From positions 572,314-636,313 of the forward strand of contig CAZGEO010000001.1 of NCBI GenBank assembly GCA_964525295.1: DNA of 64,000 nt, read 5' to 3'. Numbering within the stretch: the first letter of the stretch is position 1; each line of letters starts with the position of its first letter. This stretch comes from an uncultured Candidatus Saccharibacteria bacterium. Lineage in GTDB: Bacteria; Patescibacteriota; Dojkabacteria; GCA-002793355. Shown here one piece after another: positions 20,376-30,771 of this stretch. Both the position numbers and the translations under genes were made by a program. The notes beneath the pieces were generated by a model. The model searched no databases. It worked only from the letters and a program-made list of their open reading frames with translations, and was not told the origin of the DNA.

Positions 20376-21149
20376 ATGCCACTGCCTCGTTTGTTTGGTT
20401 CAAAAAAAGAAGAGAAATCAATTCGTGTTACTACTGTTCAATCACAACGTGAAAAAAAGGTCAGCGATACGATTGAAGCAGGCTTATATCCAGCAAAAGT
20501 TGCCTCACGTAAAGGTATTCGTGTTACTCGTCTCTTGCTTCAGGTTGTGGTAGGTGTTCTCTTTTTAGTGACGATATTGAGTTATTTTGGAGTTATTGAA
20601 CTTGGAAGAAAAGTTTGGGCTCCAGTACAAGGAAAGGTCGGTGGGCTCGTTGTGTCTTCAGAGGTGGTTAAGGTTCAGGTTAAAATGAACGGAAAGTTAT
20701 TAGGGCAGGCACCATATACAGGGCAGGGGCTTCCAGCAGGTAATCACGTATTACTGCTAGAGGCAGTCGAAAATCCCAATAACTATTTTGTTCCAGTCGA
20801 ATTGCCAATTACCATATCTCCAGATAATACAACTGTTGTGCGTGTTAATTTGGCACCAGATAATTCACTATCAAACTATGTGGTAATCTCTTCACAAACG
20901 AGAATTCATGTCGCCGATCCTAAATTAGTGGTGCGTACGGTACCTGCTGATGTATCAGTGACAATTGATGGTGCTGATTTTGGTAAAACGCCTTTACTAA
21001 ACGATTCTCTTGGCGCTGGCGCTCATCAAGTGACTTTACAAAAAGAAGGCTATCGAGCAACAACGATTGATGTAACTGTTGCTGATGATAAGACAATTAC
21101 GATTGATGCCAAATTGTATCCATATCAGGTAAAACTTGAACTAGAATGA
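20376..21149 (+). CDS. PEGA domain-containing membrane protein
   Basis: TM anchor, then two PEGA-like repeats (VKVQVKMNGKLLGQAPYTG... and VSVTIDGADFGKTPLLNDSLGAGAHQVTLQKEGY). Confidence 0.6.
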   Translation: MPLPRLFGSKKEEKSIRVTTVQSQREKKVSDTIEAGLYPAKVASRKGIRVTRLLLQVVVGVLFLVTILSYFGVIELGRKVWAPVQGKVGGLVVSSEVVKVQVKMNGKLLGQAPYTGQGLPAGNHVLLLEAVENPNNYFVPVELPITISPDNTTVVRVNLAPDNSLSNYVVISSQTRIHVADPKLVVRTVPADVSVTIDGADFGKTPLLNDSLGAGAHQVTLQKEGYRATTIDVTVADDKTITIDAKLYPYQVKLELE

Positions 21150-24100
21150 CAATAGACCAATTTACAAAAGTAAATAAGCCGATAACGGTCATCGTCAACG
21201 TGAGTAATCCGTTGGCTATTAGAATGGCTCGGATTCTTGCCGATCAAGGAAGTCGTTTACTCATCGTAGATCGGTTGACCTCGGCAAAACGTAAACTTCT
21301 CGGTGATCTTTTGGAACGAGACGATTGTCTCTTTATGGACGCCGAAAGTACCTTCAGGAATATCGACAAATTCAAGAAAATCGATTATGTCTATTACTTT
21401 ATAAATCATTTAGTCGCAGGAAGCACATTCCCTCAGCATCAAGCTGAAAGTATGGAAATTCTTGCACTGCAGCACAAAGATTTTCTCCGAGAAACGAATA
21501 GAATTGATGCATATCTTAAGCTCGCAGCAGAATTTGATGCATCGGCCACCTTAGTAACATCTGGGTATGTTGCTCAATATCTTGAACATCTTCCTGAAGC
21601 GAACTTGCAATTACAGAAGTATGCAGAATCTTTACTTCTTGATTATGTCGAGAAAAATCGATTGAATGGTCGTATTGTGCGAGTTGGTGAATTGGTTGGA
21701 ACCGATTACGATGTTACTGCTCCAACAAATTTGGCTCGCTTAATTCGTGAAGTTCTCTTACGAAAGAAAATAAACATTTTTGGTGGTGGATTGCAGCAAA
21801 ACTATATTGTTGATACTGAAGATGCGGTTTATGCGATTTTGAAGGCTGCGTTCGCTATTGAAGCGAAGGGGCGAACCTATTTAGCTGCGTATCCGCACCC
21901 GTTAACATCATTGAGTCTTGCATATCAATTGCTTGAACTCACTGTTGACGAAAAAGAAGTCGTTTTCAATGAAATTTTACCTCGTCAAGATGATATCGCT
22001 AAACTGAAAGATATGTGTATTTCGCCTTCGGCTACGGCACTTGGGTGGGAACCTCAGATTGATCTTGATCAGGCCTTAAGTGAAACCATGAAAGGTATAG
22101 CTAAAGAGCTTAATCAACCTTGGCAACAATTGAACAAAACTCCAGTTATTCCAGTGCAAACGGTTGTTGGTATGAAAGAAGAAGCCCCAGTTCCTGGAGA
22201 GAAACCAGTAAGCGAAAAACCACAAAAAGGGAAAGTTAAAGAAGCCTTTACAAGCCAGGTTATGAAAATTGACCAGGCAATAGCAACGGGGTACAAGAAA
22301 TTAATAGCTGAGCCAATACTTGGGTTATTATCCTTTCCGCAGAAAATGGCGACCACAGTCAAAAAAACCGGTCCAGCAGCGAAAGAGAGAATACTCTCTG
22401 TTGTTTTAGCCTTGGTTGTAGCGGTATTTGTTTGGGTGGTAAGTCTTCCTTACATCCATTTCGTGGTTTCTGGAGTGAAATTGTATCAACTCGCACAATC
22501 AGCAAAAACCGAATTGAGTGGTCTTGAAGGTGCAAAATTGAAAAAACTGAGTGAATCTGCTGCATCGTTAACTGGTGGAATGCTTGCCGATGTTGAAAGT
22601 GTTTCGTATTTGACAGTTATTCCGTCATTTGTTGCTCCATATAATGAATTGGTAACCTTGTTGAATGCAATTGATTTGTATGCACAAAGCAGTACAACCG
22701 CGGTAGATGCAGCTATTCCAATGCTTGAAATAGTTAAAGGAATTGCTGCTGCAAGGCCCAATGTGACATCAGGTGGGCAAACTCGCGAATACTTTACTGA
22801 AATTACTGAAATAATGAGACAAAAGAATGCGGTAGTTCAGGCTTCGCAAGAAGCACAAATTGCGCAACAACGTCTTGAAAAGGTGAACTTTTCAGTATTT
22901 CCTGCGTTTATGCAAGGCAAATTGTATGAAGCAAAAAGTTTATTATCAGGTTATTCTGGTGCCGTGAAAGAATTAGGAAAATATTACGATTTAATGCCGT
23001 ATTTTCTAGGGTACAAAGACAGAACCAATTATCTCTTAATGGTTCAGAATGAAACAGAATTACGTTCAACAGGAGGCTGGTTCACCAATTATGTTCTTGT
23101 AGGTGTTGAAAACGGTGCTGTTCGAGAATTAACCGTTAATGATGTGTACGAACTTGATGGGCGAATTCAGGGAGTGACTTCCCCAGCAGATATGCAAAAG
23201 GCTTTAAATATAAAAGATTTCAAGCTTTCGTTAACCAACTGGAATCCAGAGCTTGCGGTAACTGCAACTGAAGCGGGTAATGCGTTAGATCGAGCAGGGA
23301 AGTTCCAAGCAAATGACGTTACCGTCACAATGACTTTTCAGGTTGTTCAAGATATTTTGCGAGTTATTGGGCCTATTAATATCGAAGGCCTAGGTTCAGT
23401 TTCAGCAGAAAATATGTATGAAAAGGTGGGAATCCTTCACGAACAATTTACTCCAGGAACTGACAACAAGATTAAAACAGTATCCCAGTTCTTGCCAATT
23501 CTGCTCGATCAAATCGCGTCGGCAGATGTAGGGAAAAAACAAGAAATTATGTCGGTTCTTCTTTCTGCGATTGTAGAGAAGAATGTGATGATTTACTCAA
23601 CTAATGCAACAGTAAGAACTCGTTTACTAGATACGTTTGAGACATATCGAGAGTTGAAGCAAACGTCAAATCCGCTCTTTGTTGTTGATTGGAATTGGGG
23701 TGGAAATAAGGCAAATATGTATCTTCGTCGCACAACAGATATCGAGATTAATGAACAAACGAAAAAGGCAAAAGTGACAATGGTCTACACTAATGATAGT
23801 AAGAAAGATGCCTATCCAGAGGGGAAATATGTGAATGTTCAAAGAGTATATTTTCCAGAACAGTTTACTTTCAGTAAGGCAGTTGGCTACTCTAAGCCTG
23901 TTACGTTGTACAAAACAACACAAGAAGTACTGTATGTACTAACTCAAATGGAAGTAAACATTCAAGAAACGAAGAACGTCTGGCTGGAATATGATTTCAA
24001 ATCATTGCCAAAGTTTATGACATTAATGAAACAATCAGGCATTGATACCGAGGTCGTGCGAGTGATAATTACCCCAGCAACTGACAAATCTGAAATAAAC

Positions 24101-24199
24101 ACAGAAGTTCTCAAAAATCAGGAATTCACGTTGGCAGACGAAAAATGGACGAAGACTTTCATTCGCAAAACCGATGTCGAGGTAATGTTTAAGAATTAA
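21146..24199 (+). CDS. Large DUF4012-type envelope protein with degenerate N-terminal Rossmann (epimerase-like) domain
   Basis: N-terminal SDR/epimerase-like fold lacking GxxGxxG. TM segment (VLALVVAVFVWVV). C-terminal region with RSTGGWFTNYVLVGVENG typical of DUF4012. Overlaps the PEGA gene by 4 nt. Confidence 0.55.
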   Translation: MTIDQFTKVNKPITVIVNVSNPLAIRMARILADQGSRLLIVDRLTSAKRKLLGDLLERDDCLFMDAESTFRNIDKFKKIDYVYYFINHLVAGSTFPQHQAESMEILALQHKDFLRETNRIDAYLKLAAEFDASATLVTSGYVAQYLEHLPEANLQLQKYAESLLLDYVEKNRLNGRIVRVGELVGTDYDVTAPTNLARLIREVLLRKKINIFGGGLQQNYIVDTEDAVYAILKAAFAIEAKGRTYLAAYPHPLTSLSLAYQLLELTVDEKEVVFNEILPRQDDIAKLKDMCISPSATALGWEPQIDLDQALSETMKGIAKELNQPWQQLNKTPVIPVQTVVGMKEEAPVPGEKPVSEKPQKGKVKEAFTSQVMKIDQAIATGYKKLIAEPILGLLSFPQKMATTVKKTGPAAKERILSVVLALVVAVFVWVVSLPYIHFVVSGVKLYQLAQSAKTELSGLEGAKLKKLSESAASLTGGMLADVESVSYLTVIPSFVAPYNELVTLLNAIDLYAQSSTTAVDAAIPMLEIVKGIAAARPNVTSGGQTREYFTEITEIMRQKNAVVQASQEAQIAQQRLEKVNFSVFPAFMQGKLYEAKSLLSGYSGAVKELGKYYDLMPYFLGYKDRTNYLLMVQNETELRSTGGWFTNYVLVGVENGAVRELTVNDVYELDGRIQGVTSPADMQKALNIKDFKLSLTNWNPELAVTATEAGNALDRAGKFQANDVTVTMTFQVVQDILRVIGPINIEGLGSVSAENMYEKVGILHEQFTPGTDNKIKTVSQFLPILLDQIASADVGKKQEIMSVLLSAIVEKNVMIYSTNATVRTRLLDTFETYRELKQTSNPLFVVDWNWGGNKANMYLRRTTDIEINEQTKKAKVTMVYTNDSKKDAYPEGKYVNVQRVYFPEQFTFSKAVGYSKPVTLYKTTQEVLYVLTQMEVNIQETKNVWLEYDFKSLPKFMTLMKQSGIDTEVVRVIITPATDKSEINTEVLKNQEFTLADEKWTKTFIRKTDVEVMFKN

Positions 24200-25671
24200 C
24201 GCTGGATACACATGAAATGATCGGCGGTGGAGCAAGTGACTCCTTGTTGTTGCGAAATATAATCAATTTCGGTTTGCCAATCAGAAATTTTATAAGGGAA
24301 GAGAAATACGAATTTTTTCTCTTTCATTCTTTCTTGCAGCTCAATTTGCCAACTTTGGTTAGTGGCATCAAATGAATAACTTGAGAATTGTTGCAGTTTT
24401 GGATATCGGCGACGGTAGTACTCCATGGTTGGATTACCGTCAACAAAATATATTGCATAGTCAGTTGGCGAAAGCTCGGTAACGGTCTCAATATTCCTCT
24501 GAAATCCGTAGGTTTCGCCAACTACAACATACCTAACAGGAAAATAGCGCAATGTAGCAATAAGTAATACAGTTAAGCCGGCGATGGCGCTACTAACCGT
24601 AATTCTTACGAAAAAATGACTCTCTTCGCGTAAAAGTAAGCCGAACAAGAGTAGTGTCGAAGGAATCAGAAAAATTGTTAGGCGACCCTGCAAAGGATAC
24701 AGCCCTAAAGCTGAAGCGATGGCAGATATTACAAAAGTAAGCGTAATGAGAATTAGTAGAATTCTAACTTTTGTGTAAAAAGACTTCATCGAAATAAAGT
24801 TAAAAACATATCCGCCAATCAATACCAATAAAAGTAAAAATGGCGCGATTTTCCCAAATGAATAGCTGAACGAAAAGATACTGAGATACAATTGTTTGAA
24901 AGTTTCGAGGTCACCAAGGCTGAGAAAGGCTTTGCTGTTTTGCCAATATTGATGTAGATGTTCATTTCCCGAAGTGAATTTATACTGTATAAGATACAAA
25001 ATTGAAAAAGTAGTAAGCCAAAGAATTCCTGGCATGAAGAGTTCTCTTATAGTATCGAAGATTTTCAATTTTTGTGTTGTAATTGCGTCAATAAATAGAG
25101 TTATGCCACACGCAGCAAGGATAAAAAGACTGGTTTGTGAAAATAATAACGCGATTGTGCCTGAAATCGTCAATTGCAGGAGGCTCGTTGAGGTAGGGTG
25201 CTTTAGGTGTTTTTGAGTAAGTAAAAGAAGTAGCGAAGATATCGCAAGTTCGATCATGTATTGTTTATGTTGAACCGAGTATGTGATAGCGACAGGAAGA
25301 ACCGCATAAAAAGCTAGCAATAGCTTGTTTTTTATTTCGAACGTTTCGAAAAGTCTGTACAGCAAATACAACGAAAGAAGTCCCGCAAAAAAGGCGGGTA
25401 ATCTCAGTATGTATTCTTGGATACCTATAAAAGAAGTCAAAAATTTTTCAATAAGCAGGTACGCAAAAGGCGCAGATTGGCTGAAGCGATCTGTTCTTAA
25501 CAACTCAAAAAAGTTGAAATCTAGGATATTTAACGTAAGTGCAGCTTCATCTAGCCAAAGGGTAGGATTCGCAACGTAAAGTGCGATTCTTGCGATTGCT
25601 CCGATTGTGACGGAAAGTGCCGTAAAAAGAGTGATTGTGACAGGAGCGTATTTTTTGATAAATTCAAGCAT
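24196..25671 (-). CDS. GT-C family glycosyltransferase (ArnT/PMT_2-like)
   Basis: Polytopic membrane protein with an N-terminal loop WLDEA (DE motif of GT-C transferases). Start moved to the internal Met (MLEFIKKYAP) to avoid a 109-nt overlap with the upstream ORF; the ORF-track long form ends at 25818. Confidence 0.55.
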   Translation of the reverse strand: MLEFIKKYAPVTITLFTALSVTIGAIARIALYVANPTLWLDEAALTLNILDFNFFELLRTDRFSQSAPFAYLLIEKFLTSFIGIQEYILRLPAFFAGLLSLYLLYRLFETFEIKNKLLLAFYAVLPVAITYSVQHKQYMIELAISSLLLLLTQKHLKHPTSTSLLQLTISGTIALLFSQTSLFILAACGITLFIDAITTQKLKIFDTIRELFMPGILWLTTFSILYLIQYKFTSGNEHLHQYWQNSKAFLSLGDLETFKQLYLSIFSFSYSFGKIAPFLLLLVLIGGYVFNFISMKSFYTKVRILLILITLTFVISAIASALGLYPLQGRLTIFLIPSTLLLFGLLLREESHFFVRITVSSAIAGLTVLLIATLRYFPVRYVVVGETYGFQRNIETVTELSPTDYAIYFVDGNPTMEYYRRRYPKLQQFSSYSFDATNQSWQIELQERMKEKKFVFLFPYKISDWQTEIDYISQQQGVTCSTADHFMCIQR

Positions 25672-25709
25672 GCTCAATACTACTGAATCTGTCGAAAAGA
25701 AACAATAAT

Positions 25710-26054
25710 CTAGAAATTCTGTACCGGAATCTGCCAGAAGGCGTATCTGTGGTTGAACAAATACAAGGAAAGGAACAAAAGCAGGTACGTTAGTAACCAA
25801 ACGCCGATTCTTGCCCAATTATTTTGTTGTTTGTTGAGTAACCACCACCCTACATAGGCAAGTGCAATGTCGAAAATTGGCACGAAAGGTAACCAAATTT
25901 CTTCATGACAAAACAAAAGAGCTTCTGTACCGCCTGAGCCTGTGCCGGTGCAGTAATCAGCAAGATTGATCCATTTGAAGATGAAAAGTATTGCGATGAA
26001 CACAAGTGAAATGCCCCAATAAAGAATTCCAAAGAGTAGTTTTGATTTATTCAT
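25710..26054 (-). CDS. Hypothetical small membrane protein
   Basis: Three TM segments. The ORF-track long form (to 26192) would overlap the tmRNA gene on the opposite strand, so the internal Met start is preferred. Confidence 0.4.
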   Translation of the reverse strand: MNKSKLLFGILYWGISLVFIAILFIFKWINLADYCTGTGSGGTEALLFCHEEIWLPFVPIFDIALAYVGWWLLNKQQNNWARIGVWLLTYLLLFLSLYLFNHRYAFWQIPVQNF

Positions 26055-26147
26055 ATTGAATTGTAACGTTTCTGCGTCAAAATGATAACAATTGTCGCCT
26101 TGACGTGACTTTCTACCCTCAAAAATGCTATAATTCACATACCCAAT

Positions 26148-26569
26148 GGGGGTGACCGGCTTAGACGGTTGTTCATTGAAAGAAGTAGCCAAGCGGGCTG
26201 ATATCCCGTAAATCTATCAAAGCACCATAAAGTGCCAAGTCAAACCTTTCTGAGAAAGTCGCAGCTTTTTTGAACTCAGCAGTTAAGGCTTTTGCCTCAG
26301 TTGTTGCAGCTCCAAAGCTTGCAGTCTCACTCGTCTCTTAATGACGTAACTGGTTTCTCCTCCTTTGCATAACAAGCGGGAAACCAGGAGTAATAAGGTT
26401 TATGCCGACACGCTATCAAGCTCCGCTGGGGTAGAGTGTTGTACATGTGCGGGCGAGTATTCCTTTTTTGCTCGATTTTCAGGGGATACTTAGTACTCAA
26501 CTCGAGCTGTCTTGGGAGAGACTTCTTTTTAAGAAGAGCTGCACAGGGGTTCGATTCCCCTCACCTCCA
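26148..26569 (+). ncRNA. ssrA: tmRNA (transfer-messenger RNA)
   Basis: 5' GGGGGUGA pairs with 3' UCACCUCC to give a 7-bp acceptor stem with a G3:U wobble (tRNA-Ala identity), followed by a discriminator A. T-arm AGGGGUUCGAUUCCCCU. 5' GGCUUAGACGG resembles the GGAUUCGACGG box. Internal frame ...AAAGUC GCA GCU... is followed by UAAUGA stops and a CUGGUUUC/GAAACCAG helix. Confidence 0.65.
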
Positions 26570-27325
26570 TTTTTTCAACACTCTCGTTCGCTACAAAAAA
26601 GAAACCAGTTCTTTTTTGTTACGCTCACGATCCGTGTAGAAGAAAATGGAGCGAACGGGAGGGGTGAAAAATAGGAAAATGTTGGGGAAGCGAAACGCAA
26701 GCGAGAATGTACTGACGTACATTCGAACGAAGCGGGGGTCGAGGAGCGGAAAATTTTCTAGCGAAGCGACGGAAATGACCGCGAGGTGACCGATTCCCCT
26801 GACTTTTGAAAACGCTTCGAAAGAGTTTTTTATGACGTCGGCGACCATTACCCATTCGGGCAAAAAGAGGCTTTTCAAAACGATAATGTTCGATGCTATC
26901 GCCTGAAAGTATAACCTTATCGTTTACTGTGAATGGTAAAGAATCTTCTTGTGTTGCACTACTATCAAGCGAAGTAGTGCAGTCAGAAGCGCGAGCGCGT
27001 AGGGGCTCGCGCTCTTCTTCCTGCAAGCCATGAGAAACAATCGACTGTCTCTTTCCTTTTATTCTTGAGGAATTTGAGTCACTCGAAATTTTGCCCATAA
27101 GTAGTGTGCCTACACGAGTAGATCCAATGGATCATTTCTAATGTAGGGTGCCTAACCTTGAAGGCGGCTACTTACGGTCTGACAGTTCTTTTGAACAGCG
27201 TGATCTTTTTGTTAACTTGTTTTCTCTGGCATCATCACTCCTACCAGCAGAAGGCGCATTCGGCCTTGGGCCTTTATATATTACCCTGTTAAATTGTAAG
27301 CGATAAAATAATTTAGAATAGAGTA

Positions 27326-28399
27326 CTACACCCCAGTCATAACCTTGAATTTATAACGTGGTCTTAGCGGAGTAATGAAACTCCATTGAACGTGGTCTTC
27401 TTTTGCCAATCTTCCTGCAACTATTGAATGTGCTATTTGAATTTTATTCGCGAATTCTTTGATCGAAGCCAATGAGAAGATTCCTGATTGAATAAACTGT
27501 TCGTACATATCAGAGGGTATTAGTGTGTTTTTCGCAAATTCGTTGGCTTCTAATTCATGGGTTTGAGTATCATCCTGACTGATTTCATCAATAAAGTTTT
27601 TATTTTTGTCATGAATTATCAAGTGGCCCAACTCGTGAAAGAGTGTGAACCAGAATATATCTTCAGTGCAGTTACGCAATGATAAAATAATTACTGGTGT
27701 CTCATTTTGTATCCAAATCAATGCACCGTTAACAGGGGATCTCGGAATATTCGGCAACCCAATTAAAACTACACCCGCCTTTTTTAGAATTTCTTTTACT
27801 TGTTTATAGACTACTGTGATAGGCTGCTGTGATAGTTTTTTTATCTCATCGAGAGAGCGAGTTAACAAGGTTTTGTTGTATCTGTATTCTGGTAATGATT
27901 TGAGTGCAGCAATTTCTCCCTGTCTTAACCAAGCTTGCGTTTCAGGGATTGAAGCCTTAAGTTTATCTGCAATTCTGAATTCGATTGCTACATCCCTATC
28001 TATTACTGTTTTAAGTGAATTAACTGCGAAGAAATTCAGTAGGTTCCTAACTTTGGTTACTTGATTAATAGTTTTCTCTACCCAACCAAAGTTTGCCATA
28101 TCTTTATAAAAGGAAAAATGAGGAAGATATTTCTTTTCATCTAAAACATGGTTAAGGTCTTCTTCAATAGCAAGCGCGTGCTGATAATTGCTCTCAAGAT
28201 TAATCCAAAAGTCGGATGAGATTTCGAATATTCTAGATAGACGTATTGCAGTCTCGGGAGTAATAGATGCTTTCTCATTAATAATCATGTTCAGTTGCTT
28301 TCTGCTCAGACCAATACGTGCAGCGAGTTCAACCTGTGATAATCCATAAGCTATCATCGTTTCTTCAAGGATTGTCCCTGGATGTGTGATGTTGTTCAT
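27326..28399 (-). CDS. HigA-type HTH antitoxin fused to ImmA/IrrE (COG2856, DUF955) Zn-metallopeptidase domain
   Basis: N-terminal HPGTILEE...GLSQVELAARIGLSRKQLNMIINEKASITPETAIRLSRIFEISSDFWINLESNY matches the HigA/VapI HTH. C-terminal HEXXH (FHELGHLIIHD) in a DUF955 context. Confidence 0.7.
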   Translation of the reverse strand: MNNITHPGTILEETMIAYGLSQVELAARIGLSRKQLNMIINEKASITPETAIRLSRIFEISSDFWINLESNYQHALAIEEDLNHVLDEKKYLPHFSFYKDMANFGWVEKTINQVTKVRNLLNFFAVNSLKTVIDRDVAIEFRIADKLKASIPETQAWLRQGEIAALKSLPEYRYNKTLLTRSLDEIKKLSQQPITVVYKQVKEILKKAGVVLIGLPNIPRSPVNGALIWIQNETPVIILSLRNCTEDIFWFTLFHELGHLIIHDKNKNFIDEISQDDTQTHELEANEFAKNTLIPSDMYEQFIQSGIFSLASIKEFANKIQIAHSIVAGRLAKEDHVQWSFITPLRPRYKFKVMTGV

Positions 28400-28752
28400 C
28401 AGTGGTAGTTTATGTCTAAGTTAGTAATCATTACAGAGGTAATTTCTTCTGGCTGATCAGAAATCGGAGTGCCATCATCATTGTAAGGAGTGATGATCAT
28501 TCGAAACGGCTCAATCGTTGTAAGCGCGTATGATCCCTGATCTTTCCCGATTAGCGGATGAAAGTTTAATTGTTTTAATCCGTAAAGGTCTTTTAAATTT
28601 TTTGCTGCGCAGAGTTCTGCGTGCCTTATCAAAAGAACCTTTCCCTTACGGTCGCCAAACTCCGCTTTAGCTTTGCCTAGTTTTTTCTCCATTTTGTTAT
28701 TGGAAAAGAAGACTTTCATTAATATTCTATACTGTATCTTATCCGTTGTCAA
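28399..28752 (-). CDS. HigB-like (RelE/ParE superfamily) toxin
   Basis: C-terminal FHPLIGKDQGSYALTT...ITNLDINYH parallels HigB LHPLKGDREGYWSI...ILNYEDYH. Toxin-first order with 1-nt overlap onto the antitoxin. Confidence 0.6.
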   Translation of the reverse strand: MTTDKIQYRILMKVFFSNNKMEKKLGKAKAEFGDRKGKVLLIRHAELCAAKNLKDLYGLKQLNFHPLIGKDQGSYALTTIEPFRMIITPYNDDGTPISDQPEEITSVMITNLDINYH

Positions 28753-28832: not shown

Positions 28833-30392
28833 TTGAATATGAAATTTGGATTTAGAACACCTTCACTCAAGAAGAGTATATCTGCAAGACTATCCCCAAA
28901 GCGTGCGATAAAAAATGCCTTGGGCTTGCGAATGCCCCGTGGTACAGGTTGGATAACTAATCCTAAAAAAGCACTTTATAACAAAGTCTACAATAAAACG
29001 ACATTCGGAGTAAAAGATATCATGAAATCGTCATCAAGAAAGAGCGTTCCTACAAAAAGCAGTACGGCAGGAACGAGTAACCCACTTGCCATTTGGTTAC
29101 TTATTGCAGGTGCATTACTGCTTTGCGGTCAACCTTGGTTTTCTGTTTTAATTGTTATTGGCTTAGTTATATATAACATGATGCCATCACAGAAAGCATT
29201 AAGTTACGCAAAAATAGCAGTTCAATCATTTGATAATGGAAATAAAGAGGGCGCAGTTTTAAATGCTAAAAATGCATTTGAATTACAACCGAAAAATCCA
29301 GAATATAAGCGATTGTATGCATTCGCATTAAATAATGTTGGAAAGTATCAAGAAGCACAGGATCTACTTGAAGAATACGTAACTGCAAACCCAACAAGAG
29401 AGGATGTCTTGTTTGTATTGGGCTACTGTTATTATAAAAACGAAAAACTTGAACATGCGAGAAAATGTTTACAACAAATCTCACCTGAATCGTCTGATTA
29501 TGTTAGGTCAATCGTAGTCATTGCTGATACATATACAAAAGAAAATAAACTTGATTTAGCATTAGCAGTTCTCAAAGAAGGTCCACTTAGAAAAAGAATT
29601 TCAGATGACTCCTTAGTTATGTTGCATTATCAATTGGCTTGCTTGTACGAATTGCGAGGAGAGAAAAAGAAAGCAATAAACGAATTTGCAAAAGTGATGG
29701 CAGTCGACCCAGAACATGCAGACACAGAACAGCGAATAAATGCATTAATGGGAACGGAGTCACCAAATATTCAATTATCTGAGCCTAAAATTATCGAGCC
29801 AACAGATGAAGGTAATGTTCCAACGATAAATCTAAAGGAATGGTTTAGTTCAGCTTTTACCTTGGAAGAACAGCAATATATGAATACCGTCTTTCAACCT
29901 TTAGGAAGTAATTCTACGCTAACTCAAGACATAAACAGTTTGTCTGAAAATGAAGCATTAAGCTTTCTTACAGCTTTGGTAGGTTGGTTTGATAATCCAC
30001 GAGATAGAAAATTCGCATTTGTCATAATTAAAAAAGCAGAAGAATATGTAAGTCAAGCAGATATTCTTGACCAGCATTTCTTTTGGTCAACCAAAATGAA
30101 ACTTTTTTATAAAGAGCGAGAATCAAATCCAGAGAATCTTGAAATTGCTATAAAATCAGCACAAAAACAAATCTCACTTGCTCCGAGAGCATCAATTGCT
30201 TTTAAAAAAGAAATGCCAGGCCCGCTACCGTTTCATGAAGGATATGTTCAACTGTGCATTATTCTTGATAAGCAAGGTAAATATGAAGAGGCAATTGCTT
30301 TAGCGCAAAAGGCTAAAAGCGAAGGGTGGAACGAAGATTGGGATAAGCGAATAGAAAGACTTAAATCAAAAATTGCTAAAAAGTCGGCTTGA
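28833..30392 (+). CDS. Tetratricopeptide-repeat membrane protein
   Basis: Basic N-terminal region, one TM (AIWLLIAGALLLCG), then several TPR-like helical repeats (AFALNNVGKYQEAQDLLEEY..., LACLYELRGEKKKAINEFAKVMAVDP). Confidence 0.55.
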   Translation: MNMKFGFRTPSLKKSISARLSPKRAIKNALGLRMPRGTGWITNPKKALYNKVYNKTTFGVKDIMKSSSRKSVPTKSSTAGTSNPLAIWLLIAGALLLCGQPWFSVLIVIGLVIYNMMPSQKALSYAKIAVQSFDNGNKEGAVLNAKNAFELQPKNPEYKRLYAFALNNVGKYQEAQDLLEEYVTANPTREDVLFVLGYCYYKNEKLEHARKCLQQISPESSDYVRSIVVIADTYTKENKLDLALAVLKEGPLRKRISDDSLVMLHYQLACLYELRGEKKKAINEFAKVMAVDPEHADTEQRINALMGTESPNIQLSEPKIIEPTDEGNVPTINLKEWFSSAFTLEEQQYMNTVFQPLGSNSTLTQDINSLSENEALSFLTALVGWFDNPRDRKFAFVIIKKAEEYVSQADILDQHFFWSTKMKLFYKERESNPENLEIAIKSAQKQISLAPRASIAFKKEMPGPLPFHEGYVQLCIILDKQGKYEEAIALAQKAKSEGWNEDWDKRIERLKSKIAKKSA

Positions 30393-30771
30393 TAGCGAAA
30401 TTATCGAATCAATATTTATTAAAAGTTGGTTCGACATCCATCCCCTCAGGTCCATTTTTCAAATTTCTCTTGCTCACTACCGCTGAAACATTCGTTTCAT
30501 CGGGATACGCTCGCAATCCGAAATTTGAGAAAATGCAGGAGACAGCAAGAGGAATTTGAAAAAGTGAAGAATGCTGGGGAATCGAAACTTGAGAAAAACG
30601 TGAACGATTTCACGTTTGACGAGAGCGAGGCTACGCCTAACAACCTTTGAAAATACAATGTGCAATTTTAGTGGCGGGCCAGCAAGGTGATGTTTGAGAA
30701 AAATTCCCGAAAGTAAGTTGGCAAGGCCAAAAATTGGTGGGTGTTCGATTTTCTTTACCCCACTCCCAGTA

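What the first reader, a model, noticed from the sequence alone, without database searches (positions are those of the whole stretch)
26570..27325. GC-rich ORF-less block immediately 3' of ssrA
About 750 bp with visibly higher GC than the flanks. It contains only low-complexity overlapping ORFs. It has several strong hairpins: AAAAAAGAA-ACCAG-TTCTTTTTT, GAATGTACTGACGTACATTC, and a long-range CTCGTTCGCT/AGCGAACGGG pairing. It also has a partial copy (CCGATTCCCCTGAC, 26791-26804) of the tmRNA 3' end (TCGATTCCCCTCAC). This could be an unannotated structured RNA, or the scar of an element integrated into ssrA.
Basis: seen in the sequence. Interest (0 to 1): 0.5.

Follow-up and report, generated by a model that had tools for sequence, protein, structure and literature searches.

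The report
Small gene island beside the tmRNA gene
The flagged block is not one feature: it is a folded, repeat-forming tail of the tmRNA gene joined to the left end of a roughly 3.9-kb inserted gene island that carries a toxin-antitoxin-type module, a familiar kind of event with an unusual boundary structure.

Summary
The block 26570-27325 is real but composite.

- **Trailer (26570-26738).** This is a structured tail that starts 2 nt after the tmRNA gene (26148-26572). It contains a 19-bp long-range helix, an inner hairpin, a 15-nt conserved loop motif, an inverted degenerate copy of the tmRNA T-arm (26683-26696) and an 8-bp hairpin.
- **Second copy of the trailer.** A copy about 63% identical, preceded by a degenerate tmRNA 3' end, lies at 30424-30630. 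It keeps the helices through 11 of 30 two-sided changes in the main fold, plus 6 of 8 in the hairpin.
- **Cargo between the copies.** The copies bracket about 3.9 kb: a small orphan ORF on the minus strand (a conserved coding segment sits inside the "ORF-less" block), a ~190-nt conserved noncoding stretch, a HigA-peptidase gene (best defence-library match PD-lambda-2 component B), a putative toxin gene and a TPR gene. No integrase is present.
- **Sister strain.** A strain 96-98% identical switches from left-copy to right-copy sequence exactly after the inverted T-arm motif, so it lacks the cargo.

The best reading is an integrase-less island inserted next to ssrA, bounded by long structured att-like repeats. 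Whether the fold acts in RNA or in DNA is unresolved. I rate it a new variant of a known kind, of moderate interest.

The parts
26148..26572 (+). tmRNA gene (ssrA). T-arm 26545-26561, acceptor 3' strand 26562-26568, discriminator A 26569. No CCA is encoded. A promoter-like site lies at 26105-26134.
   Evidence: Rfam RF00023, 78.3 bits, E 1e-28. The promoter scan gave a 10 of 12 match with an extended TG. ARAGORN does not detect the gene.
26570..26672 (+). Trailer domain D1. Long-range helix P1 pairs 26571-26577 with 26665-26671 and 26581-26592 with 26650-26661. Inner hairpin P2 pairs 26593-26603 with 26609-26619. The conserved unpaired motif TACGCTCACGATCCG is at 26620-26634.
   Evidence: MFE fold. 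Covariance model R1 and pair counts give 95.6% of cells paired and 11 of 30 pairs changed on both sides. Only 2 of 1000 neutral-drift simulations keep a fold as stable as the second copy. The sister strain L003 is 98% identical here.
26673..26696 (+). Spacer plus the 'core' TGGGGAAGCGAAAC (26683-26696). The core is an inverted, degenerate copy of the tmRNA T-arm. It is the best-conserved stretch between the two trailer copies and the point where the sister strain switches from left-type to right-type sequence.
   Evidence: The core pattern also matches the minus strand of the T-arm at 26548-26561. Model R1 hits the minus strand of its own locus at 38.9 bits. L003 is 98.2% identical to the left copy before the core and 87.5% identical to the right copy after it.
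26705..26724 (+). Hairpin P3 (GAATGTAC-TGAC-GTACATTC), followed by the conserved flank GAACGAAGCGGGGG up to 26738.
   Evidence: Sequence. The homologous hairpin in the right copy and in L003 is AACGTGAA-CGAT-TTCACGTT, so 6 of 8 pairs differ on both sides.
26784..26804 (+). Direct partial copy of the tmRNA T-arm and acceptor (AGGTGACCGATTCCCCTGAC). In the MFE fold it pairs with the core, GGGGAA with UUCCCC.
26625..27098 (-). ORF3, a small orphan ORF of 157 aa. The conserved coding core is residues 31-91 (26826-27008). Its basic C-terminal tail overlaps the trailer.
   Evidence: An exhaustive phmmer search found one real homologue, P0015. BLASTP gives 54% identity over 61 residues. pN 0.31 against pS 0.77. 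The antisense frame has stop codons in the relative. Gene order is the same in L126-L132. There are no Pfam, PHROG, NCBIfam or PADLOC matches. The AlphaFold2 model has pLDDT 42.7 and is uninformative.
27140..27325 (-). Region C: conserved noncoding stretch between the HigA-peptidase stop codon and ORF3. It holds small hairpins, one with a GGAG and an AUG in its loop.
   Evidence: About 80% identical to L126:3485-3680, with indels that are not multiples of 3, although synonymous sites between the two organisms are saturated. A few compensatory changes are seen. No Rfam hit.
27326..28399 (-). HigA-type XRE helix-turn-helix domain fused to an M78 (ImmA/IrrE) peptidase domain, 357 aa.
   Evidence: Pfam HTH_3 and Peptidase_M78. 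TIGR02607 HigA, 71.4 bits against a cut-off of 47.7. PADLOC PD-Lambda-2_B, 3.9e-39.
28399..28752 (-). Small upstream gene, called as 97 aa (28399-28692) by the public gene caller. It is a putative toxin partner.
   Evidence: PHROG 3066 'toxin of TA system', E 3.6e-4 only. pN 0.08 against the L126 orthologue. No Pfam or PADLOC match.
28833..30392 (+). TPR-repeat protein; island cargo.
   Evidence: Pfam TPR families. The N-terminal ~80 aa match PHROGs of unknown function.
30424..30460 (+). Degenerate copy of the tmRNA 3' end (AGTTGGTTCGACATCCATCCCCTCAGGTCCATTTTT), with a 5-nt insertion and a CC-to-GG change in the acceptor strand.
   Evidence: It is 93% identical to two copies in the related island L126, which flank a 249-aa gene there.
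30456..30630 (+). Second copy of the trailer: D1' (30456-30563), core' TGGGGAATCGAAAC (30575-30588), P3' (30597-30616) and the flank up to 30630.
   Evidence: Model R1 hit at 46.2 bits, E 1.2e-8. It folds at -91 kcal/mol, z = -3.43. Identity to the left copy by segment is 58-80%.
30739..30768 (+). Third, more degenerate tmRNA 3'-end-like sequence (GGGTGTTCGATTTTCTTTACCCCACTCCCA).
   Evidence: Similarity is weak, about 70% over 20 nt.

Best explanation
The block is the junction between the tmRNA gene's structured 3' trailer and the left end of a small genomic island inserted next to ssrA.

**Shown**
- The trailer (26570-26738) is a foldback. Its 3' half is an inverted, degenerate copy of the tmRNA 3' end plus the first trailer bases. 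These pair as a 19-20 bp helix around an inner hairpin and a conserved loop, followed by an 8-bp hairpin.
- The same module, preceded by a dead copy of the tmRNA 3' end, recurs at 30424-30630. The two copies are direct repeats.
- The repeats bracket about 3.9 kb of cargo: ORF3, a conserved noncoding leader, a HigA-M78 gene (best defence-library match PD-lambda-2 component B), a putative toxin gene and a TPR gene.
- The sister strain carries one hybrid module and no cargo.

**Inferred**
- The island entered, or in the sister strain left, by recombination between the two modules at or beside the 13-14 nt inverted-T-arm core.
- The modules therefore act as attL and attR.
- Because the island has no recombinase, it is now either fixed or mobilisable only in trans, like a cis-mobilisable element.
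- The toxin/HigA-peptidase/ORF3 operon is a toxin-antitoxin or abortive-infection type module that helps retain the island.
- The ~190-nt conserved stretch is its internal regulatory region or leader for ORF3.
For: **Gene and fold**
- The tmRNA gene is confirmed.
- The left and right modules both fold far better than shuffled sequence, z = -3.25 and -3.43.

**Second copy**
- A model built only from the left copy finds only the right copy in 64 kb, E ~1e-8.
- On the model-fitted alignment, 95.6% of cells are paired against ~55% in slid controls, and 11 of 30 pairs are changed on both sides against 0-2.
- P3 has 6 of 8 pairs changed on both sides.
- Neutral drift keeps such a fold in 2 of 1000 simulations.
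- The degenerate tmRNA 3' end at 30441-30459 matches 17 of 19 bases, and the match extends to GGTTCGA.

**Sister strain L003**
- It is 98.2% identical to the left copy up to the core and 87.5% identical to the right copy after it. Its junction sequence is unique to it, which argues against assembly chimerism.

**Cargo**
- The cargo has mobile-element flavour: HigA TIGR02607, PD-Lambda-2_B at 3.9e-39, and PHROG hits.
- A second organism carries the same toxin / HigA-M78 / noncoding / ORF3 order, with two 93%-identical copies of the degenerate tmRNA end flanking another cargo gene.
- Synonymous sites between the two organisms are saturated (pS 0.77-0.90). The 80% noncoding identity and the ORF3 core (pN 0.31) therefore reflect selection.

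**Precedent**
- Tandem ssrA islands bounded by ssrA 3'-end repeats, some without integration genes, are described in Dehalococcoides (PMC3146451).
Against: - No integrase or other recombinase is present in the island, nor among the ten window ORFs of 183-429 aa that I scanned.
- The repeats are about 200 nt long and only ~63% identical, unlike the short exact repeats that site-specific integration normally leaves.
- If the island had simply integrated at the tmRNA T-loop, the distal repeat should be the host's own tmRNA end. Instead it is a variant shared with a distant relative.
- The sister-strain contig stops 32 nt after the core, so what follows there is unknown. It could carry a different island rather than an empty site.
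- L003 could equally be a deletion derivative formed by recombination at the best-conserved 13 nt. That would say nothing about the original integration point.
- Cargo GC (0.37) is not clearly foreign against 0.39 for the window.
- Only two independent trailer sequences exist, and the pair counts were made on a model-fitted alignment.
Confidence: 0.6

Rival explanations
1. The trailer is primarily a functional RNA: a structured 3' extension of the tmRNA precursor. The long helix that starts 2 nt after the discriminator, and the anti-T-arm motif, would guide 3' processing (for example by a double-strand-specific nuclease) or hold the precursor inactive. The island and the second copy would then be incidental. 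This is not mutually exclusive with the att-site reading.
For: - No terminator separates the tmRNA from the trailer.
- CCA is not encoded, so 3' processing is obligatory.
- Each copy has G-U pairs on the plus strand that would be C-A mismatches on the minus strand.
- The extended fold pairs the core with the T-arm 3' half.
- The structure is under selection.
Against: - The second copy keeps perfect helices although it follows a dead tmRNA end that cannot be a functional tmRNA part.
- No similar trailer was found behind 100 genome loci that share the same 24-nt T-arm and acceptor.
- No expression data are available.
Confidence: 0.2
2. The whole 750-bp block is one previously undescribed noncoding RNA gene.
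For: High predicted stability and GC in the first third. No Pfam domain in any ORF.
Against: - The block is heterogeneous.
- 26826-27008 is under protein-level selection on the minus strand.
- 27140-27325 is conserved together with the HigA operon of another organism, while 26573-26820 is not.
- The sister strain shares only the first ~125 nt.
- No Rfam family reaches its threshold.
Confidence: 0.03
3. The ORF-poor stretch 26739-27325 is the decayed remnant of the island's integrase gene. Such genes usually lie next to the tRNA or tmRNA gene.
For: - The position and orientation match: a minus-strand ORF running into ssrA, as for dsiB in Dehalococcoides (PMC3146451).
- The island lacks an integrase.
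- In L126 the ORF3 homologue ends about 55 nt upstream of a transposase-like ORF, and I infer that an IS3-like insertion truncates it.
Against: - No similarity to any recombinase family, even at E <= 10.
- Only ~525 nt are available.
- The conserved core shows purifying selection between two deeply diverged organisms, which a dead gene would not.
Confidence: 0.07
4. Chance: the repeats and hairpins are compositional coincidences in a purine-rich spacer.
For: The GC excess is modest, in the top 2.8% of windows. The copy at 26784-26804 and the one at 30739-30768 are short and degenerate.
Against: Model hit at E ~1e-8. The shuffle and slide controls argue against chance. The 19-mer repeat matches 17 of 19 bases. 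The sister-strain hybrid junction is a real sequence.
Confidence: 0.02

Closest known systems
Genomic islands integrated at the tmRNA gene, in particular the tandem ssrA-specific islands of Dehalococcoides (PMC3146451)
   Same: - Insertion is directly 3' of the single-copy ssrA.
[quoted passage not shown]
- Several repeat copies occur in series.
- Some islands lack integration genes.
- A minus-strand ORF runs into ssrA or its flank.
- Content differs between strains.
   Different: - The repeat here is a ~200-nt module about 63% identical (tmRNA end plus a folded trailer), not a ~20-bp exact repeat.
- The sister-strain switch point is ~125 nt downstream of the tmRNA, at an inverted T-arm-like motif, not in the T-loop.
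- No serine or tyrosine integrase is present.
- The island is only ~3.9 kb.
Cis-mobilisable elements (islands that keep att sites but have no recombination or transfer genes), as discussed for ssrA islands in PMC3146451
   Same: Bounded by att-like direct repeats, carries no recombinase, and is present or absent between close strains.
   Different: Mobilisation in trans has not been shown, and no cognate integrase-bearing partner element was found in the window.
PD-lambda-2 three-gene toxin-antitoxin-like defence system of E. coli (PMC9519451)
   Same: A small upstream gene, then a HigA-XRE-peptidase fusion (the component B model matches at 3.9e-39), then a third small gene in the same orientation.
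   Different: Components A and C do not match the PADLOC models. The third ORF has no detectable relation to a P4 antitoxin. A ~230-nt conserved noncoding stretch separates genes 2 and 3.
Folded single-strand recombination sites (integron attC; the CTX-phage attP hairpin built from two inverted dif-like sites). Comparison from my own knowledge, not tested here
   Same: An imperfect palindrome whose structure, rather than sequence, is conserved. It is built from two inverted copies of the target-like sequence separated by ~100 nt and sits at cassette boundaries.
   Different: There is no IntI or Xer evidence. The attC R'/R'' consensus is not met by eye. No single-strand intermediate is known here.

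Membership tests
tmRNA (Rfam RF00023) | Score at or above the curated gathering threshold, over the full-length model | tested here: met
   78.3 bits against 47, model positions 1-374
Permuted (two-piece) tmRNA (RF04321) | Score at or above the gathering threshold; an acceptor piece followed by a coding piece | tested here: not met
   25.2 bits against 47. The match is the real T-arm plus a GGGGUGAAA that belongs to helix P1 and is absent from the second copy.
Genomic island in a tRNA/tmRNA gene | Lies directly at the 3' end of the RNA gene | tested here: met
   Cargo begins 125-170 nt after the tmRNA end
Genomic island in a tRNA/tmRNA gene | Direct repeat of the gene's 3' fragment at the distal boundary | tested here: met
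   30424-30460: GGTTCGA and TCCCCTCA..TCCATTTTT are shared, 17 of 19 in the best stretch. The copy is degenerate, not exact.
Genomic island in a tRNA/tmRNA gene | Integrase gene inside the island | tested here: not met
   No recombinase domain in any island ORF
Genomic island in a tRNA/tmRNA gene | Absent from a closely related genome, leaving a single att-like site | tested here: met
   L003 hybrid junction. Limitation: the contig ends 32 nt past the junction.
Genomic island in a tRNA/tmRNA gene | Composition differs from the host | tested here: inconclusive
   Cargo GC 0.37 against 0.39 for the window
PD-lambda-2 defence system | Component B: HigA-XRE domain fused to a peptidase | tested here: met
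   PDLC03982, 3.9e-39, covering residues 14-336
PD-lambda-2 defence system | Component A: HigB-like toxin | tested here: not met
   No PADLOC or Pfam match. Only PHROG 3066 'toxin of TA system' at 3.6e-4.
PD-lambda-2 defence system | Component C: related to a P4 antitoxin | tested here: not met
   ORF3 and P0015 match nothing in PADLOC, Pfam, NCBIfam or PHROGs
HigBA toxin-antitoxin | HigA antidote domain above the curated cut-off | tested here: met
   TIGR02607, 71.4 bits against 47.7
HigBA toxin-antitoxin | Toxicity of one partner neutralised by the other | not testable with these tools
   Needs expression experiments
Integron attC | R''/R' core consensus (RYYYAAC ... GTTRRRY) and a nearby IntI | tested here: not met
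   The module ends read GTTGGTTCGA ... TCGAAAC. The order and consensus do not fit by eye, and no integrase is present.
Intrinsic terminator | G+C-rich stem followed by a U run | tested here: not met
   No terminator-like site in 26573-26740. P2 is an A/U-only stem, and the second copy has no U run.

The most novel reading that the evidence does not exclude
The ~170-nt foldback behind the tmRNA gene, built from an inverted mimic of the tmRNA T-arm and acceptor, could be a new class of structure-specific recombination site, or an RNA that guides recombination. It would let integrase-less cassettes be captured and exchanged next to ssrA in reduced genomes. This would be analogous to integron attC sites or the folded CTX-phage attP, but targeted to the tmRNA 3' flank.

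Supporting hints:
- Public assemblies of the same samples break within 16 nt of the P3' hairpin, which hints at ongoing junction heterogeneity there.
- The degenerate tmRNA end is 93% conserved in a relative whose synonymous sites are otherwise saturated.
Probability: 0.12. Interest if true: 0.7.

Novelty: new variant of a known kind. Interest (0 to 1): 0.4.

Why it matters
Islands at ssrA are common, so the basic event is ordinary. Three things here are not routine:

- **Boundary structure.** The boundaries are long, diverged modules whose secondary structure is kept by many two-sided changes. This means something reads the fold, either in the tmRNA precursor or in DNA during recombination.
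- **No recombinase.** The island carries none, in what appears to be a very small genome (the protein look-up gives a 659-kb contig). That raises the question of how such genomes exchange defence or addiction cassettes.
- **Conserved unknowns.** An orphan small ORF and a ~190-nt noncoding element are conserved beside a HigA-peptidase gene across a divergence where silent sites are saturated. They are candidate new parts of this poorly understood toxin-antitoxin/defence family.

For annotation, the result warns that "ORF-less, GC-rich" DNA next to ssrA can be a mosaic of att region, a small gene and a leader.

Tried and rejected
- **ARAGORN** finds no tmRNA; Rfam does.
- **Rfam at E <= 10 on 26000-27600.** Only the tmRNA and sub-threshold noise. 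The permuted-tmRNA hit is explained by the real T-arm.
- **Phage database, blastn with the block.** No match.
- **GTDB genome scan with the neighbouring 540-aa protein.** No relative.
- **Genome scan with the 24-nt T-arm and acceptor.** The trailer model finds nothing in 100 of them.
- **Metagenome scans.** The trailer pattern gave 0 hits. The degenerate-tmRNA-end pattern found only the already known JGI contig.
- **Viral-contig scans (5).** Four gave 0 hits. The fifth gave three chance 18-mer matches that do not extend.
- **Synteny in 61-64% relatives of the neighbouring gene.** No tmRNA nearby.
- **ORF fragments of the block against Pfam and PHROGs, and ORF3 and its homologue P0015 also against NCBIfam and PADLOC.** Nothing, so no integrase remnant was detectable.
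- **AlphaFold2 of ORF3 with its single homologue.** pLDDT 42.7, unusable, so no fold search was run.
- **The partial gene next to the degenerate tmRNA end in L126.** No family and no phage match.
- **MAFFT plus RNAalifold on the two trailer copies.** The helices were misaligned. I replaced this with a covariance-model alignment.
- **Plus-strand ORFs in the block as real genes.** Rejected because of non-3n indels and stop codons in the relative.

Full report
**Observation**

The window carries a tmRNA gene at 26148-26572 on the plus strand (Rfam RF00023, 78.3 bits against a gathering score of 47). ARAGORN does not report it. A promoter-like site sits at 26105-26134. The gene ends ...CACCTCCA followed by TTTTTT, so CCA is not encoded.

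The stretch 26570-26830 folds at -83.2 kcal/mol, z = -3.25 against dinucleotide shuffles. The 13-nt partial copy of the tmRNA 3' end is at 26791-26803, with 0.05 matches expected by chance.

The GC excess is real but modest. The block is at 0.441; 753-nt windows average 0.390 (sd 0.023), and 2.8% of them reach the block's value. The excess is concentrated in 26573-26810.

**A second copy of the tmRNA end and trailer**

A repeat search showed that the last bases of the tmRNA and what follows recur about 3.9 kb downstream. TCCCCTCACCTCCATTTTT (26556-74) matches TCCCCTCAGGTCCATTTTT (30441-59) at 17 of 19 bases. Reading the sequence extends the match leftwards to GGTTCGA, with a 5-nt insertion.

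The similarity continues well past the tmRNA end, for about 170 nt. Identity by segment:

| Segment | Identity, left vs right copy |
|---|---|
| tmRNA end | 69% |
| Main fold (D1) | 63% |
| Spacer plus 14-nt core | 80% |
| Hairpin P3 region | 58% |
| Beyond P3 flank | about 50% (background) |

**The fold is conserved**

Both copies fold the same way:
- a long-range helix P1 that begins 2 nt after the tmRNA discriminator;
- an inner hairpin P2;
- an unpaired conserved motif, TACGCTCRCRATCCG;
- a spacer and the motif TGGGGAAKCGAAAC;
- an 8-9 bp hairpin P3.

I built a covariance model from the left copy and its near-identical orthologue only (127 positions, 30 pairs). With filters off it finds the right copy at 46.2 bits, E about 1e-8, and nothing else in 64 kb.

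On the model alignment, 95.6% of cells are standard pairs, against about 55% when partners are slid by 1-3 columns. Eleven of 30 pairs differ on both sides, against 0-2 in the slid controls, and no shuffle of 500 reaches these values. The alignment was fitted to the model, which favours the structure, and there are only two independent sequences.

As a check that does not use the alignment, I mutated the left copy at random to 25-40% divergence. This gave a fold as stable as the right copy in 0-6 of 1000 trials.

P3 is GAAUGUAC/GUACAUUC on the left and AACGUGAA/UUCACGUU on the right and in the sister strain. Six of 8 pairs are therefore changed on both sides, at the same position and with the same size.

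**The trailer is a foldback on the tmRNA end**

The motif TGGGGAAKCGAAAC also matches the minus strand of the tmRNA T-arm. The model also scores the minus strand of its own locus at 38.9 bits.

So the 3' half of the trailer is an inverted, degenerate copy of the tmRNA 3' end plus the first trailer bases. The extended fold can pair the core with the 3' half of the T-arm. In the MFE fold of the left copy, the direct partial copy at 26784-26804 pairs with the core.

**What lies between the copies**

On the minus strand:
- A 357-aa HigA-type XRE domain fused to an M78 peptidase, at 27326-28399. It matches Pfam HTH_3 and Peptidase_M78, TIGR02607 above its cut-off and PADLOC PD-Lambda-2_B at 3.9e-39.
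- Upstream of it, a small gene with only a weak phage-toxin match.

On the plus strand, a TPR protein gene. No recombinase is present in the island or among the ten other window ORFs I scanned.

According to PMC9519451, PD-lambda-2 consists of a HigB-like gene, a HigA-peptidase fusion and a third gene that is needed for defence.

**The "ORF-less" part contains a small gene**

The public gene caller called a 157-aa ORF at 26625-27098 on the minus strand. An exhaustive phmmer search of 1.84 billion representatives found one real homologue, P0015 (E 3e-7). It is 54% identical over 61 residues.

Its contigs (L126-L132, three sources) show the same order: small gene, 357-aa HigA-M78 (81% identical), about 230 nt of noncoding sequence, then this ORF.

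Evidence that the segment is coding, all between the window and L126:
- Synonymous sites are saturated (pS 0.77-0.90 in all three genes).
- pN is 0.31 for the ORF core, 0.11 for the HigA-M78 gene and 0.08 for the small upstream gene.
- The antisense frame has stop codons in the relative.

So 26826-27008 is, or recently was, coding on the minus strand. The N- and C-terminal parts are not conserved. In L126 the ORF ends about 55 nt upstream of a transposase-like ORF, and I infer that an IS3-like insertion truncates it there. In the window its basic tail overlaps the trailer.

ORF3 has no family match anywhere, and its AlphaFold2 model is unusable at pLDDT 42.7.

**A conserved noncoding stretch**

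Window 27140-27325 is about 80% identical to L126:3485-3680, with 1- and 2-nt indels. Given saturated silent sites, this conservation must be selected.

It contains small hairpins with a few compensatory changes, one of which carries GGAG and AUG in its loop. No Rfam family matches. I read it as a regulatory region or leader inside the operon. That is an inference.

**Sister strain**

L003 (Logan SRR32934939) is 96-98% identical to the window around the tmRNA. Up to and including the core it is 98.2% identical to the left copy and 64.5% to the right copy. The 32 nt after the core are 87.5% identical to the right copy and 61.8% to the left copy.

Its junction bases are unique to it, so it is not a k-mer chimera of the two window copies. 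It therefore has one hybrid module and lacks the ~3.9 kb in between.

Two caveats apply. The contig ends 32 nt after the core. And the data cannot tell whether this is an empty site or a deletion by recombination between the copies.

**Related island**

In L126 the degenerate tmRNA end AGTTGGTTCGACATCCATCCCCTCAGGTCC occurs twice. One copy is 93% and the other 85% identical to the window's, and they flank a 249-aa zinc-ribbon gene.

The variant, with its insertion and its altered acceptor strand, is thus a conserved element of this island family. It is not a decayed copy of this host's tmRNA. No trailer-like fold follows it in L126.

**Interpretation**

The best-supported reading is an integrase-less island next to ssrA, bounded by long, structured att-like direct repeats. 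The flagged block is the native trailer plus the island's left end.

The closest described case is the tandem ssrA islands of Dehalococcoides. These are bounded by ssrA 3'-end repeats, some lack integration modules and are discussed as cis-mobilisable, and a reverse-strand gene runs into ssrA (PMC3146451).

The differences here are:
- the length and divergence of the repeats;
- their conserved fold;
- the switch point about 125 nt downstream of the tmRNA, at an inverted T-arm mimic;
- the absence of any recombinase.

Whether the fold works in the tmRNA precursor (plus-strand G-U pairs and the lack of a terminator favour this) or in DNA during recombination (its maintenance beside a dead tmRNA end favours this) cannot be decided with the data available.

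**Reach of the searches**

The organism is absent from the JGI metagenome and GTDB collections searched. The trailer model finds nothing in the related island contigs or in 100 loci that share the T-arm 24-mer. The structural evidence therefore rests on two diverged copies plus one close orthologue.

Noticed in passing
window 26148-26572: The tmRNA is 425 nt long and ARAGORN misses it. Taking the resume codon from my reading of the Rfam alignment, the tag reading frame starting at 26234 would be 35 codons (AKSNLSEKVAAFLNSAVKAFASVVAAPKLAVSLVS, then two stop codons). That is long, and it does not end in the usual LAA-type motif. CCA is not encoded.
   Followed up: partly
window 30611-30626; L001, L002, L141, L003: Public Logan contigs of the same strain end at 30626 (two samples), and the downstream contig starts at 30611, giving a 16-nt overlap CACGTTTGACGAGAGC just after the P3' hairpin. 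The sister-strain contig ends at the equivalent of 30620. With k = 31 assembly this pattern suggests an alternative junction or an insertion polymorphism at that point.
   Followed up: partly
L126:268-308 and 1199-1235: Two copies of the degenerate tmRNA 3' end flank a 249-aa zinc-ribbon gene. One copy forms the last codons (..GPEGMDVEPTYQ*) of a partial gene of unknown family on the opposite strand. The window keeps only a remnant of that gene (..GPEGMDVEPTFNKY*, minus strand 30409-30516).
   Followed up: partly
L126:4163-4290: The ORF3 homologue stops about 55 nt upstream of a partial ORF that I read as the start of an IS3-family transposase (MKSARKTYDADFKARVVLES..; my reading, with no family search). 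The four longest contigs of this island (L126-L129) end within about 125 nt of it.
   Followed up: no
L135:5654-9022: A 42%-identical HigA-M78 homologue, with its small upstream gene, sits directly upstream of a Multi_ubiq / ThiF (E1-like) / BubE operon. This suggests that the gene pair can accompany other defence-type operons.
   Followed up: no
window 27226-27250 (minus strand): A conserved hairpin (UCUGCUGGUA...UGCCAGAGA) presents GGAG and AUG in its loop and is followed by a 7-codon mini-ORF. The stop-codon position of that mini-ORF is conserved in L126.
   Followed up: partly
window 25597-25703 versus L003:1026-1989: The sister strain has about 860 extra bases carrying a 235-aa gene with no known domain, between the small membrane-protein gene upstream of ssrA and the 540-aa GT39-like gene. 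This is a second strain-specific indel within 1 kb of ssrA.
   Followed up: partly
window 21146-24199 and the whole window: There is a 1017-aa fusion of an epimerase domain and DUF4012. The protein look-up reports a 659-kb NCBI contig, GC is 39%, and no GTDB species representative encodes a close relative of the neighbouring gene. Together these point to a very small, poorly sampled genome, possibly of the candidate phyla radiation. That placement is an inference.
   Followed up: no
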